Positions 3 through 59,589 of a stretch of DNA of 64,000 bases are shown here, piece by piece. The notes beneath the pieces are model-generated. The model made no database searches and was not told the origin of the DNA. It was given only the letters and a program-made list of their open reading frames with translations. Position numbers and translations under genes: made by a program. The stretch is from Octopus vulgaris (lineage: Eukaryota). How positions within the stretch are numbered: the stretch's first letter is position 1; each line of letters opens with the position of its first letter. The stretch lies in assembly GCA_951406725.2 (NCBI GenBank), contig OX597834.1:43834001-43898000 (forward strand). Direction: 5' to 3'.

Positions 3-47
3 ATTATCTTGATAATGAGACCAAGAAAAAGCAGAAACGTCGATAGT
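3..47 (+). ncRNA. Degenerate minimal hammerhead ribozyme motif
   Basis: ATTATC|TTGATAA|TG..CA|GAAAC GTC|GATAGT: stem I ATTATC/GATAGT pairs (one G.U), GAAAC-GUC is intact, and the CUGAUGA box carries two substitutions. Confidence 0.4.
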
Positions 48-357
48 GCAGAGAGATAGAGAATATTATAATTTCTCCACACTCGATCGAGTTGACGAAA
101 CTCATTAGCTAACTAGAAAACCTTCTAATTATGTATTCAATTTATATAGCAATAAATGGAAAGAAAAATGGAAGACAATGCTGCTGGCTGCGAAAGCGTC
201 GACAAACAAATACATGCTGTATTATACAGAGAAATAGGCGTCTGGAATTAAGAATGAATGTAGAAAGGGCATTTTATGGTGTTTATATGCGTTTTGGAAA
301 AATGATTGTAAAAAACATGATTGTACCGATAAAACGATGAAAATAAATGATTTTCGT

Positions 358-497
358 GGCGCTCCGTCGGTTACGACGACGAGGGTCCCAGTTGATCCTA
401 TCAACGGAACAGCTTGCTTGTGAAATTAACGTACAACTGGCTGAGCATTCCATAGATTCGTGTACCCTTAAGGTAGTTCTAGGGGAGATTCAGCTGA
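358..497 (-). mobile_element. 3' part of tRNA-derived SINE family C
   Basis: Reverse complement matches 23528-23690 (gatcaactgg.accc.cgtcgt, aatttcac.agca.gctgttccgtt). Confidence 0.65.
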
Positions 498-557
498 CGG
501 AGAGTCTGTCCTTATTTGTCCTCTCTGTGTTTAGCCCCTTGTGGGTAGTAAAGAAAT

Positions 558-742
558 AGGTATTTCGTCTGCCGCTACGTTCTGAGTTCAAATTCCGCCG
601 AGGTCGACTTTGCCTTTCATCCTTTCGGGGTCGATCAAATAAATACCAGTTACGCACTGGGGTCGGTGTAATCGACTTAATCCGTTTGTCTGTCCTTGTT
701 TGTCCCCTCTATGTTTAGCCCCTTGTGGGCAATAAAGAAATA
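558..742 (+). mobile_element. SINE family B (tRNA-derived, Deu/Nin-like central domain), 5'-truncated
   Basis: ggtatttcgtctgccg.tacgttctgagttcaaattccgccgaggtcgactttgcctttcatcctttcggggtcgat; near-identical to 23793-24025; B-box GAGTTCAAATTCC. Confidence 0.85.
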
Positions 743-894
743 AAGAGCTTGCTTCCCGACCACATTCTAAAGGGTTTAGTCTCAATGCGTGACACCATTT
801 TTTCCATTCGAGTCAATGCAGAATTACTATAAGTATTTACGGAATATTGATTTAGTGTCGAGTAACATTTGGGCAACCGAGTATATGTATATAT

Positions 895-1220
895 CTATGT
901 GTGTGTGTGTGTGTGTGTGTGTCTTTCTGTCTGTGATTGTCCCCCCCCCCCACGTCCTCTACCACCATCACCGCTTGAGAACCGATGCTGGTTTGTTTAC
1001 GTCCCCGTAACTTAGCGGTTCGGCAAGAGTGACTAAAAGAGCGACTAGTCTATACACGTAGGTCCTGAGGTCGATTTGTTCGAATAGACCCCTTCAAGGC
1101 GATGCTCTAGCATAGCCGCAGTCAAATGGTTGGAACAAGTAAAAGAATAAGAGAATAGAAGAATAAGAGAATAGACGAATAAGAGAATAGACGAATAAAC
1201 GAATAGAAGTATAAAGGAAT
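895..1220 (+). mobile_element. SINE family A, 3' half, with decayed (AAGAGAAT)n-like tail
   Basis: accgatgctggtttgtttacgtccccgtaacttagcggttcggcaa...catagccgcagtcaaatggttggaacaagtaaaaga matches the 3' half of 5768-6202. Confidence 0.8.
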
Positions 1221-55498: not shown

Positions 55499-55533
55499 GT
55501 TTCCGACGAAGAGCTCCGCTCGAAACGTTAAAC
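55499..55533 (+). ncRNA. Minimal hammerhead ribozyme motif
   Basis: GTTT|CCGACGA|A GAGC-TCC-GCTC|GAAAC GTT|AAAC; all three stems intact, palindromic AACGTT, U4 replaced by C. Confidence 0.72.
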
Positions 55534-56504
55534 CCTCCTTCCCTTCTTTCCTGAGCGTCAATAATACTTTAATTGTTCCACGTCCTCGCGTTGCTGTGTT
55601 TTTTTTCTGTGTTTTCTTGTTTGGATTAACTATATATATATAACATATACATACATACATATATATATATATATATATACATATATATATATATATAACA
55701 TATACATACATACATATATATATATATATATATATATATATATATATATATATATATATATGATTCTGCAATTATATGTATACGCACAACTATTACATAT
55801 CATACATACACACATGCATGCGTATACATCTACATATGCACGCACAGATACACACATTTTATACGCATAGACGTATACATAGAGAGAGAGAGAGAGAGAG
55901 AGAGAGGGGGGAGGGTGAAGCAGGGAGGCACACGTATTATACAGGATATCATTTCAAGTGGCTTTTAAACCAACACCTGGGAAATGTTAATATACAGAAA
56001 GTAATAAAGACGAACTTACATTGACAGTAAGATAATATAATTTAATAAAACTACTACTACTGCTGCTGCTGCTGCTGCTGCTGCGACCACTGTCATTGTT
56101 GCTACTCATACAAGCACTCACCAAGACTAGCACTCTGATTACGAAAATCACTTCCACTACTACCCCTCCCCCAACAACTTCCTTCCACACCACTATATCA
56201 TCAACACTACTGCTACCAACACCACCACGATCAACACTACCACTTCCCCACTGCAAGCAACCACCGCCTTTACAGCTAATCACGAATTCTACCGCCTTCA
56301 GTATAACTTGAACAACTCCCTAGCTATCTCTTACCCTTCTTTTTTTCGATGTTCTGTGATTATTTACACATGTCTCTGAACTCTGATTAGAAGGTTTCCA
56401 TCTGCGACCATCACTGTTGCTTTTCCATTGATGCCTTCATTATTTCCCTCAACAGCGTGGCCGATGAACTCACATTACCGTGAGGAGGAAAGTATCATAA
56501 ATAA

Positions 56505-56625
56505 ATGACTAACAAGGCATATATTGGTGTTGCTGCCAACGCATTCAAGACCAGATTAAACCAACGTTTACAAGCCTTCAGGAACCTGGACACGAGAAAT
56601 ATCACTCCACTCTCCAGCTACCTAC
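56505..56625 (+). mobile_element. Penelope-like element GIY-YIG endonuclease fragment
   Basis: NKAYIGVAANAFKTRLNQRLQAFRNLDTRNITPLSSYL fits the PLE pattern YIG.....FK.R...H...FR......T.LS.Y; no upstream RT and no GIY half visible. Confidence 0.75.
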
Positions 56626-59186
56626 CTCTGGTACTTTCGAGCACTAAACTTCATATGACCGACAATGAAAGCCTCGTCATATTGTTGTAGGTGCAAGCCT
56701 TGTTATCTATATACAGCAGAAAGGGGACAACAAAATATCCAGATAGACGATACAAAAAGATACGGACGGGTCATTCGAAGCCTTTTATCTTCAGTCAAGA
56801 ACCGGATCATCCTCGCAATTTCGGCTGATTAATCTTGAGATTGCTCCAATCTGGTCAACCCCAAGGAAAAACTAAGCTAAGAGCATTAGAGGTTGAAAGG
56901 GGTGAACGTGTATGTGTGTGTTTGTATGAGGGAGAGAGAAGGAGTGTGTATGTATGTGCGTATGTATGTATTATGTGAGTGGAGAGACAGACAGACAGGG
57001 GAATGTATGTATGTGTGGGTATGTGTGTGTGAGGAGAGAGACAGACAGGCAGAGTGTGAGAGGAGTGAACGTGGATGTGTGTGTTTGTATGTGTGGAGGG
57101 GACAGAGAAGGATGTCTGTGTATATATGTGTGTATGTGTGTATGTATGTATGAATGTATGTATGTGTGTATGCATGTATGAATTATGTATTTATGTATGT
57201 ATGTGTGTATGTATGTATGAATTTATGTATATATGTGTGTATGTATGAATGTATGTATGTATGTATGTTTGTATGTATGTGTGTATGTATATATGTGTGT
57301 ATGTATGAATGTATGTATGAATGTATGTATGTATGTATGTTTGTATGTATGTATGTATGTATGTATGTGTGTGTGTGTATGTATGTATGTATGTATGTGT
57401 ATGTATGTATGTATGTATGTATGTATGTGTGTATGTATGTATGTATGTATGTATGTATGTGTGTATGTATGTATGTGTGTTTGTATGTATGCATGTATGT
57501 AAGTGGAGAAAGAGACAGACAGCCAGACAGAGGAATGTATTGTGTGGGTATGTGTGTATGCGTTTGTGGTGAGAGCGTGAATGTGTGTGGTGTGTGGTGT
57601 GTGGTGTGTGGCGGAGAGAGTTAGAGTCAGAGAGAGAGAGAGAGAGAAAGAGAGAAAGGCAGAACGAGAAACAAAGAGGCATATAAAGAAAGCTCGAGGC
57701 AAAAAAAAAAACATACGGCGTGTGCTTGTGTGCATGTGTGCATTTGTGCGTTTGTGCATGTGTGTGTGTGTGTGTATTTGTACGCTTGTGTATGTGTGTG
57801 GGTGGCTGCATATGTGTGTGTGTGTGCGTGTGAGGCAGATTGAAGGAGAGTGAGAGGAAGAGGTAGGAGACTACGAGAGTGACGTTAAAGTGTGTTAATC
57901 CCAAGGTGCCGGACAGCTTCGGTAATTAGCTTTTGGATTTAACTAATGGAAAACCGTAATCGCCTTCTGTAATGACTTTTTTTTTTCCTGCGTGATTCTC
58001 TGTATTCCTAAACTTATGTGTCTGCTTGTATTTTGAATACACACATACATACATACATACATACATACATACATACACATACACATACACACACACACAC
58101 ATACACACACATACATACATACATACATACATACACACACATACATACATACATACACACACATACATACATACATACATACATACATACATACATACAT
58201 ACATACATACATACACACACACACACATATACACACACATACATACATACATACACGCATACACACATACATATATAAATATATATGTGTGTGTATATAT
58301 ATATATATATATATACATACATATATATATATATATATATATATATATATATATATATATGTATGTATATGTATATACACATACACATGCACAAACACAT
58401 AAACACACACACATAAACACACACAGCCACACACACACAGACACACACACAAGTACGCACGCGGTTTCAGAAAGAGGAAACTTATTCCTCGGTCTGCTGT
58501 AGATGTGATTGTTGTTATTGTTATGACTTTATTATCTCCCTTGCTTGTTTGCTTGCTTTTTTTTGCTGCTGTGGTTTTTTATCGTTGTTGTTGTTGTTGC
58601 TGCTGTTGTTGTTAATGCGTTTCCTGTCTTTTCTTATAATCGCTTTATTTCTTTCCTGGATTTATTATTATATAGTAATGGATATGCTGGCTTGGTCGAT
58701 AAACTTATATATCATATACATACATATGCACGTGCGTGTATATATATATATGTATGTGATCACATACATATTTATACATATACATAATCACACACTCACA
58801 CACACACATATATATAATTATTTATATATGTGAGTGTGTGTATATTTGCATGTATATGAATAATACAATATTTCAATTTGCAAGCAAACAAGAAAAGTAC
58901 TCAATGTAGAAAACAAGAGCAATTTCTTATTGTAGTAATTTCTGTTAATTACCTAGCACAGTAATCTCAGCATTGTGAGGTATATATAAATATGCGATTA
59001 GAGGTTGTGTTAGCCTCCTGAAATGATGGTTTCATCTAAAGAAATACTGGTTGAATACCTAATATTTGGTAGGGAATTGCTTTCCTTAAAATAATATGTA
59101 TACTTATATATATATATATATATATATATATATATATATATATATATATATATATATATATATATATATATATATATATATATATA

Positions 59187-59339
59187 CTTTATTTTAAGCA
59201 GCAGAAAATTCAACAAAATCTGTTACTCTGAGTTTCTCGTTGCCGTTCATCAGACAGTTTTTGCTAGCAAAAACTGTCTGATGAACGGCAACGAGAAGAG
59301 TAACAGATTTTGTTGAATTTTCTGCTGCTTAAAATAAAG
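59187..59339. repeat. 153-bp near-perfect palindrome centred on GCTAGC
   Basis: Left arm 59187-59265, right arm 59266-59339; the only difference seen is a 5-bp deletion in the right arm. Confidence 0.95.
59220..59257 (-). ncRNA. Minimal hammerhead ribozyme motif with intact core (mirror copy at 59274-59306 on + has a deletion)
   Basis: Minus strand CTGT|CTGATGA|A CG-GCAA-CG A|GAAACTC-A-GAGTA|ACAG: stem I CTGT/ACAG, GNRA-capped stem II, stem III ACTC/GAGT, GUA site. Confidence 0.8.
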
Positions 59340-59507
59340 CATATTACTCTACCACTGGTATTTGAGTACTCTTTTTTCCACCTTGTTTCACATTTATGTG
59401 TTTACTCCGGTATATATATATATATATATATATATATATATATATATATATATATATATATATAATAGTATCATTCAGTCCGCTATAATGAATCCATAAA
59501 TTTTCTT

Positions 59508-59589
59508 TCCTTCTGAAGATATGATCGGGTCGTATGAATTTAATATTTAATTAGATTCACTGATTGTTAATAGAAACAGCTGTAAAGGA
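59508..59589 (+). ncRNA. Type-I hammerhead ribozyme motif with extended stem II
   Basis: TCCTT|CTGAAGA|TAT GATCGG..TGAATTTAAT-ATTTA-ATTAGATTCA CTGATT..ATA|GAAAC AGCT GTA|AAGGA; predicted cleavage after A59584. Confidence 0.78.

What the first reader, a model, noticed from the sequence alone, without database searches (positions are those of the whole stretch)
3..59589. About ten dispersed minimal hammerhead ribozyme motifs of several distinct families in one 64-kb window
Seen: the ordered pattern stem I - C(U/C)GANGA - (A) stem II - GAAA - palindromic stem III - UH - stem I' occurs at 13514-13561(-), 18379-18424(+), 22514-22556(+), 55499-55533(+), 59220-59257(-) and 59508-59589(+). Degenerate versions occur at 3-47, 43437-43470, 52954-52987, 54735-54773 and 59274-59306. 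The stem sequences differ between sites yet still pair, which argues against chance. Established: Penelope-like retroelements and metazoan retrozymes carry minimal type-I hammerheads whose palindromic stem III permits dimeric self-cleavage. Inference: this genome hosts a dense, diverse population of ribozyme-bearing non-autonomous PLE derivatives (roughly one per 6 kb here) that standard repeat annotation may not flag.
Basis: partly seen in the sequence, partly recalled or inferred. Interest (0 to 1): 0.85.

Follow-up and report, generated by a model that had tools for sequence, protein, structure and literature searches.

The report
Penelope retrotransposon ends carrying hammerhead ribozymes
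Nine of the eleven motifs are hammerhead-ribozyme-shaped pieces of short repeats, most traced to the tail ends of Penelope-type jumping genes, likely silent as lone copies and predicted to number about 100,000 in this genome; one family carries a tRNA-like head and likely spreads as a SINE-like short element.

Summary
All 11 strings are present; 4 pass a strict type-I hammerhead descriptor against 0.03 per shuffled window. Nine lie in seven repeat families. Following them through the own genome links five families to Penelope-like elements (PLEs) with reverse transcriptase or GIY-YIG frames: Hydra-type (59220/59274, intact tandem copies), Neptune-type (55499; 52954/54735), Penelope/Poseidon-type (18379) and a decayed type (22514). 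13514 is a non-coding element with a fixed 5' end; 59508 has no parent found; 3-47 and 43437 are single-copy and unproven. The window is typical: 34 strict hits in 600 kb elsewhere, roughly 100,000 genome-wide by extrapolation, none seen by Rfam in the window. Hammerheads in PLE ends are known since 2014, so the core finding is a known kind. Two details look new: the 18379 family has a tRNA-Arg-like head with A and B boxes inside the PLE 3' UTR, and copies that reach it mostly start there, as for a Pol III SINE; and the 52954/54735 family has U at core position 6 in 27 of 30 copies. Cleavage and Pol III transcription are untested.

The parts
13450..13575 (-). Family A1: 5'-truncated copy of a non-coding element (about 370 nt plus optional 150-nt tail); hammerhead 13514-13561, U4C core, 8-nt palindromic stem III
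   Evidence: 1760 candidates, 40 scored; 5' end at one site in 5 of 20 loci, no copy longer
18377..18515 (+). Family D: 3' part of a tRNA-headed short element that is the 3' UTR of a Penelope/Poseidon-type PLE; hammerhead 18379-18424 with one stem I substitution; head absent from this copy
   Evidence: (2962 candidates)
22473..22609 (+). Family F: decayed 3' end of an old PLE; hammerhead 22514-22556 with damaged stem II
   Evidence: 2346 candidates; GIY-YIG remnants upstream in L126 and L130
52954..52987 (+). Family B1 (A6U-core family), decayed hammerhead with C at position 6
54673..54856 (+). Family B1 short copy ending at (TA)n; hammerhead 54735-54773 with C at position 6 and G12 lost
55486..55631 (+). 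Family B: young 3' end of a Neptune-type PLE between (TA)n tracts; intact minimal hammerhead 55499-55533
   Evidence: (1306 candidates, 40 scored at 96-100%)
59187..59267 (-). Family C inverted arm lacking the 3' tail; intact hammerhead 59220-59257 with 2-bp stem II
59264..59410 (+). Family C forward arm (Hydra-type PLE 3' end with tail, ending at (TA)n); hammerhead 59274-59306 lacks 5 nt of stem III
59465..59654 (+). Family A2: older copy between (TA)n tracts; hammerhead 59508-59589 with long stem II; no coding parent found
   Evidence: (522 candidates)
3..47 (+). Possible U3-A8 core hammerhead, single copy, unproven
43437..43470 (+). Incomplete core, single copy, not supported as a hammerhead

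Best explanation
The motifs are type-I hammerhead sequences in short dispersed copies of seven repeat families, five of which join upstream to Penelope-like element (PLE) coding frames; the ribozyme likely works only in source elements, where two copies on one tandem transcript would pair their palindromic stems III and cleave, so the lone copies in this window are predicted to be silent. Shown: the family links, fixed 3' ends, (TA)n targets in most families, inverted tail-less partner copies, intact tandem parents for one family. Inferred: copies arise by target-primed reverse transcription from the 3' end; their 5' ends cluster shortly upstream of the hammerhead, likely because many come from short transcripts started in the terminal repeat; in family D that start coincides with a tRNA-Arg-like head, likely a Pol III promoter, giving a SINE-like element copied by the PLE protein.
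For: Family C: 4 of 4 fetched loci hold 726-727 aa frames flanked by same-strand identical hammerheads; L192 has three hammerheads 3430 nt apart; 29 of 30 endonuclease-selected loci hold the hammerhead region. Family D: 7 of 9 RT-selected loci run on into head and hammerhead; RT is Pfam RVT_1, E 2.8e-8. Family B: RT fragment upstream in L294, B directly 5' of a long RT-EN frame in L396. B1: GIY-YIG end 630 nt upstream in L148. F: GIY-YIG remnants in 2 of 20 loci. Fixed 3' end in 27 of 29 B segments. Inverted partner in 12 of 20 D loci. Position 7, the free core position, is the variable one: T75/A24 of 101 D copies while the six other positions are 95-99 of 101; T13/A8/G5/C4 of 30 in B1. Cofolding of A1 gives one complete core in trans. 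D head: best three matches among 27 distinct genomic tRNAs are tRNA-Arg, 47 of 73 identical, z 6.8; 22 of 24 segments that reach the head's 5' end stop within -16..+5; contig depth steps up 3.6-10 fold there in 3 of 3 contig runs. PMC4209133 reports that a lone minimal motif did not cleave and dimers cleaved weakly.
Against: No cleavage or Pol III data. No coding parent for A1 or A2. B1 and F links rest on 1 and 2 loci; the B link has no single fetched copy running from intact ORF to hammerhead. 5' clustering is not special to D: densest 25 nt holds 20 of 29 in B, 12 of 18 in C, 16 of 26 in F, 14 of 27 in A2, 17 of 35 in B1, 5 of 22 in A1, and BLAST ends can reflect divergence from the reference. 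The D head is not called a tRNA by ARAGORN in 20 of 20 loci nor by Rfam. Within-family stem I changes in A2 are as often breaking as compensating. For most motifs the minimum-energy dimer is not the hammerhead fold. Clade names rest on motifs, not on a tree.
Confidence: 0.88

Rival explanations
1. All short copies, family D included, are ordinary random 5' truncations of full-length PLE RNAs; the tRNA-like stretch is a dead SINE head that once landed in the parent's 3' UTR and promotes nothing.
For: The head sits inside the autonomous parent (7 of 9 loci); clustering of 5' ends is seen in other families too; 26 of 40 forward D copies do not start at the head, nearly all being shorter; absence of T4 runs in D is weak (expected about half the time).
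Against: A structural stop for reverse transcriptase would fall at the 3' side of the tRNA fold, not at its 5' edge; 22 of 24 segments reaching the edge stop there; A box and B box fit their recalled consensus; depth steps 3.6-10 fold at the edge.
Confidence: 0.3
2. The short copies are monomer offspring of circular-RNA retrozymes (tandem non-LTR retrozymes) rather than PLE ends.
For: A true 359-nt tandem array with a hammerhead in each unit exists in this genome (L146); A1 is non-coding with a fixed 5' end.
Against: None of the window families was found as a head-to-tail short array in its 17-40 loci; five families join PLE coding frames; the hammerhead is intact mid-copy rather than split at the copy ends.
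Confidence: 0.1
3. The motifs are chance matches in an AT-rich, microsatellite-rich genome.
For: Applies to 43437 and perhaps 3-47 (single copy).
Against: 4 against 0.03 per window; 34 against 0-1 per 600 kb; membership of multicopy families.
Confidence: 0.01

Closest known systems
Minimal hammerheads in PLE terminal repeats (Cervera and De la Pena 2014, PMC4209133)
   Same: Type-I core, short stem I, extra base after A9, palindromic stem III, mostly single dispersed motifs, opposite-strand pairs close together, U3-A8 variants.
   Different: Extrapolated number here is about 100,000 against 9,000 as the largest count in the parts of that paper I read (different descriptor); a high-copy A6U family and a tRNA-like head were not in those parts.
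Hydra-clade PLEs (Craig et al. 2021, PMC8557442), including Hydra-1_Obim and Hydra-2_aMil
   Same: Family C parent has RWK, DKT, CxxC and CxH motifs, no cysteines in the GIY-YIG core, (TA)n target; stems I and III nearly match Hydra-2_aMil in their supplement.
   Different: Unit 3.4 kb (they give under 3 kb as usual); linker CxCX5C has Phe for the second Cys; stem II only 2 bp; hammerhead differs from Hydra-1_Obim; 18,848 endonuclease candidates, 150 scored at 92-100%.
Schistosome Sm-alpha SINE-like repeats with Pol III promoter and hammerhead (as reviewed in PMC6765202)
   Same: tRNA-type promoter followed by a type-I hammerhead in a short repeat (family D).
   Different: D is dispersed, not tandem; has a minimal hammerhead; and is literally the 3' UTR of an RT-EN-coding PLE, with PLE-type inverted junctions. 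The review names no PLE partner for Sm-alpha.
Non-LTR retrozymes (PMC7229834; bioRxiv 10.64898/2026.07.22.740005)
   Same: Short non-coding hammerhead repeats proposed to derive from PLE terminal repeats.
   Different: Defined by tandem units; window copies are monomers. L146 elsewhere in the genome does fit.

Membership tests
Type-I hammerhead ribozyme | Core CUGANGA / GAAA / UH with three stems | tested here: met
   4 strict, 5 with one stem I mismatch; U4C in 13514 and 55499
Type-I hammerhead ribozyme | Reaches an Rfam hammerhead model | tested here: not met
   0 gathering hits in the window; no hammerhead among 36 hits at E up to 10 in 59180-59660
Type-I hammerhead ribozyme | Site-specific self-cleavage after UH | not testable with these tools
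   RNA-seq laid on family D shows no end pile-up but is fragmented cDNA
Type-I hammerhead ribozyme (family B1) | A at core position 6 | tested here: not met
   U in 27, C in 2, A in 1 of 30 copies
Penelope-like element | RT plus C-terminal GIY-YIG frame upstream of the hammerhead repeat | tested here: met
   C, D, B; endonuclease end only for B1 and F
Penelope-like element | Same feature for families A1 and A2 | tested here: inconclusive
   no coding frame in the loci held
Penelope-like element | Partial tandems, inverted 5'-truncated partner, tail on one end only | tested here: met
Hydra clade (family C parent) | RWK, DKT, no CCHH, CxxC and CxH around E and N, (TA)n target | tested here: met
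   frame printed against the definition
Hydra clade (family C parent) | CxCX5C linker | tested here: inconclusive
   second Cys is Phe in L192
Hydra, Neptune, Nematis, Penelope/Poseidon clades | Position in an RT tree with reference elements | not tested
   no reference proteins were held; names rest on linker and cysteine motifs and, for Neptune versus Nematis, on recall
tRNA-derived SINE (family D) | tRNA-related head with A and B boxes | tested here: met
   tRNA-Arg best match, 47 of 73, z 6.8; box consensus recalled; not called by ARAGORN or Rfam
tRNA-derived SINE (family D) | Copies start at the head and share the 3' end of an autonomous partner | tested here: met
   22 of 24 segments reaching the head's 5' end stop there; 14 of 40 forward copies start there; partner identified
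tRNA-derived SINE (family D) | Transcribed by Pol III | not testable with these tools
   unstranded cDNA reads only
tRNA-derived SINE (family D) | A-rich or simple-repeat tail and target-site duplication | tested here: inconclusive
   3' end is fixed with no poly(A); no duplication evident by eye, not scored
Non-LTR retrozyme | Head-to-tail short tandem units each with a hammerhead | tested here: not met
   window copies are monomers; met only by L146 elsewhere

The most novel reading that the evidence does not exclude
Family D is a tRNA-Arg-headed, Pol III-transcribed SINE born inside the terminal repeat of a Penelope-like element and copied by that element's own protein, a SINE-Penelope partnership with a built-in hammerhead; and this genome holds over 100,000 hammerheads, about 50,000 more with a fixed A6U core kept under selection.
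Probability: 0.55. Interest if true: 0.72.

Novelty: new variant of a known kind. Interest (0 to 1): 0.52.

Why it matters
What hammerheads do for Penelope-like elements is still open. This genome offers young, intact tandem elements (family C), several clades side by side, and natural variants (2-bp stem II, U4C, fixed A6U) that make the dimer-cleavage model directly testable. If family D is Pol III-driven, SINEs would have a partner class outside the LINEs, and a PLE would carry a tRNA-type promoter in its terminal repeat. The density, about one strict motif per 20 kb, means many host pre-mRNAs carry them, unseen by Rfam.

Tried and rejected
Rfam: whole-window E-value scan was swamped by microsatellite matches, no hammerhead in the 150 rows shown of 653; 0 at gathering. 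Direct-repeat finder uninformative for the same reason. Pfam gave nothing for the family C frame; its identity rests on motifs, a weak match to a Pfam-positive PLE (E 1e-7) and Atlas clusters with HTH_animal or GIY-YIG. GIY-YIG family search found other PLE families with their own hammerheads but no parent of the window families. First reading of D as a free-standing SINE was revised when coding sequence appeared upstream of the head. Sequencing runs: no RNA holder listed; three RNA runs of one study cover D unstranded with no end pile-ups, which says nothing on cleavage. Absence of T4 runs in D judged too weak. Within-family covariation in A2 not convincing. No PLE coding remnant in the window itself. 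The L211 match to 3-47 does not extend. Earlier scan findings: none. Luense et al. 2016 was not available.
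Full report
Setting. The window is G000:C21:43834001-43898000 in a 2.8-Gb genome of 227 contigs. It is 36% GC and 32% masked as short tandem repeat. The repeat types look like those of an octopus; that is recalled and no call confirms it. No PLE coding remnant lies in the window.

Observation. 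All 11 strings are present. A strict type-I descriptor gives 4 hits against 0.03 in 40 block shuffles and 0 reversed; with one stem I mismatch, 5 against 0.2. In 60 stretches of 10 kb taken at round coordinates across the large contigs, the strict descriptor gives 34 hits in 18 of 60 stretches, 7 of them in one tandem array, against 1 reversed and 0-1 in four shuffles. That is 43-55 per Mb, or about 120,000-150,000 genome-wide; with Poisson error on 27 hits the range is roughly 80,000-180,000. The stretches were chosen by me, not drawn at random. The window (4 in 64 kb) is therefore typical. About 70 distinct stem combinations appear in the 2 Mb of loci held, many from separate families. Rfam finds none in the window.

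Family C (59220-, 59274+). The two motifs are arms of one insertion: a forward 3' end with tail and an inverted arm without it, between (TA)n tracts; several other loci repeat this layout. Longer copies lead 1.1-1.4 kb upstream to an RT-endonuclease frame. An endonuclease query gives 18,848 candidates, 150 scored at 92-100%; 29 of 30 returned loci hold the hammerhead region, and 4 of 4 extended loci hold 726-727 aa frames flanked by identical same-strand hammerheads, three of them 3430 nt apart in L192. The motifs fit the Hydra clade as defined in PMC8557442 section 11, except one linker cysteine; the hammerhead nearly matches Hydra-2_aMil in stems I and III and differs from Hydra-1_Obim (supplement).

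Family B (55499) and B1 (52954, 54735). B has 1306 candidates, 40 scored at 96-100%, a fixed 3' end at (TA)n in 27 of 29 segments. One long copy has an RT fragment 2.2 kb upstream; that RT belongs to a PLE with a CX4CxxC linker, GIY-YIG domain and CA-rich 3' UTR, and in L396 a B copy sits directly 5' of the frame. No held locus runs from intact frame to hammerhead. B1 is related: stem I has a compensatory G-C to C-G change relative to B (one event). Its core has U at position 6 in 27 of 30 copies, C in 2 (both window copies), A in 1, while position 7 is T13/A8/G5/C4. Eleven A6U motifs pass the otherwise strict descriptor in 10 of 60 stretches against 0-2 in shuffles, about 50,000 genome-wide. 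One copy joins a GIY-YIG end 630 nt upstream. PMC3088659 reports a natural A6C with low activity and has no passage with 'A6U', so B1 may be slow or dead; the free position 7 suggests the fold was still selected among source elements.

Family D (18379). 2962 candidates, 40 scored at 90-100%. Full copies read: tRNA-like head, (AAT)n, hammerhead, fixed 3' end without poly(A); 12 of 20 loci carry an inverted tail-short copy upstream. The head's three best matches among 27 distinct tRNAs from this genome are tRNA-Arg, though ARAGORN and Rfam do not call it. Of 27 oriented head-selected loci, 22 have the hammerhead part downstream (2 of 29 dropped as not oriented). Some copies extend upstream into a GIY-YIG and RT frame without the linker zinc finger, as in Penelope/Poseidon; 150 parent copies scored at 65-89%, most broken, and 7 of 9 carry the head in place just after the stop codon. 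In 40 loci selected on the 3' part only, 32 segments include head sequence: 8 start inside it, 22 start at -16..+5, 2 extend further. Contig depth rises 10, 4 and 3.6 fold across that point in three runs (the tool warns depth is no copy number). I infer a Pol III start a few bases upstream of the head. Against uniqueness: 5' ends also cluster in B, B1, C, F and A2, which suggests starts in the terminal repeat are general; PMC2377424 reports an internal promoter in Penelope (abstract). D occurs in 6 of 60 stretches.

Families F, A1, A2. F (2346 candidates, about 85%) has decayed GIY-YIG sequence upstream in 2 of 20 loci. A1 (1760 candidates, 94-97%) starts at one site in 5 of 20 loci and none is longer, with inverted partners and an optional tail: a non-coding PLE-type element. 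A2 (522 candidates, about 80%) has PLE-type junctions but no parent found. Sites 3-47 and 43437 are single-copy; 3-47 fits the U3-A8 core, which has small families elsewhere in the genome.

Mechanism. Shown: family structure, parents, junctions, and variation concentrated at core position 7. Inferred: tandem parents give transcripts with two hammerheads that pair through stem III and cut out a unit; lone copies cannot, and the inverted pair at 59187-59339 would fold into one long hairpin. Cofolding gives a full trans core for A1 but not as the lowest-energy state for most others. PMC4209133 found no monomer cleavage and low dimer cleavage; the 2026 preprint found cleavage in 1 of 9 dimers. Intact cores remain in 18 of 22 A1, 70 of 101 D, 43 of 48 B, 51 of 61 C, 25 of 27 A2 and 12 of 26 F copies (copies mostly chosen by similarity).

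Literature seen. PMC4209133 parts 1-2 of 4; bioRxiv 10.64898/2026.07.22.740005 parts 1-2 of 5 and passages, no supplements; PMC8557442 passages, section 11, supplement part 2; PMC6765202 passages and section 11; PMC6962438, PMC7229834, PMC3088659 passages; PMC13282606 part 1 of 3 and passages, with no mention of hammerhead or ribozyme in its main text, supplements not seen; PMC2377424 abstract. Luense et al. 2016 only through the review. Searches (listings and abstract starts) showed no report of a tRNA-headed SINE tied to a PLE or of octopus hammerhead counts; Repbase, Dfam, subscription journals and unseen supplements may hold one.

Verdict. Real, and of a known kind at its centre: PLE terminal-repeat hammerheads. 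The density, the fixed A6U family and the tRNA-headed family D make it a new variant worth a follow-up. Interest 0.52.

Noticed in passing
L146:2090-4760 (G000:C1, near 20.00 Mb): Tandem array of a 359-nt unit with an intact hammerhead in each unit, five forward and two inverted, between (TA)n tracts: fits a non-LTR retrozyme with a PLE-type inversion.
   Followed up: partly
L272-L274: Young PLE family with a 781-aa RT-GIY-YIG frame, many near-identical copies among 148 PF01541 hits.
   Followed up: partly
L287, L288, L277, L278: Further PLE families with their own hammerheads 0.5-2 kb downstream of the endonuclease, some with inverted partners.
   Followed up: no
L187, L198, L372 and others: Dozens of further hammerhead families, including U3-A8 core families and stems II of 40-60 nt.
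   Followed up: no
window 16235-16706 and 17922-18394; 18632-20249 and 20466-22076: Recent local duplications at 96-99%; the first ends inside the family D hammerhead and copies only its first 16 nt.
   Followed up: no
window, e.g. 3660-3883, 5758-6183, 42026-42461, 52178-52385: Many copies of two or three 170-400 nt dispersed repeats without hammerheads, SINE-like by recall.
   Followed up: no
L113:1592-1852: RNA reads of another species label show A>G at 10-28% where the contig run shows under 2%; could be A-to-I editing or species difference, since some transversions behave alike.
   Followed up: no
L072, L073: The family C tail is fused to a different hammerhead family in the opposite orientation, in two near-identical loci 22 kb apart.
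   Followed up: no
L247: Cluster of many tRNA-Cys-like repeats in tandem.
   Followed up: no
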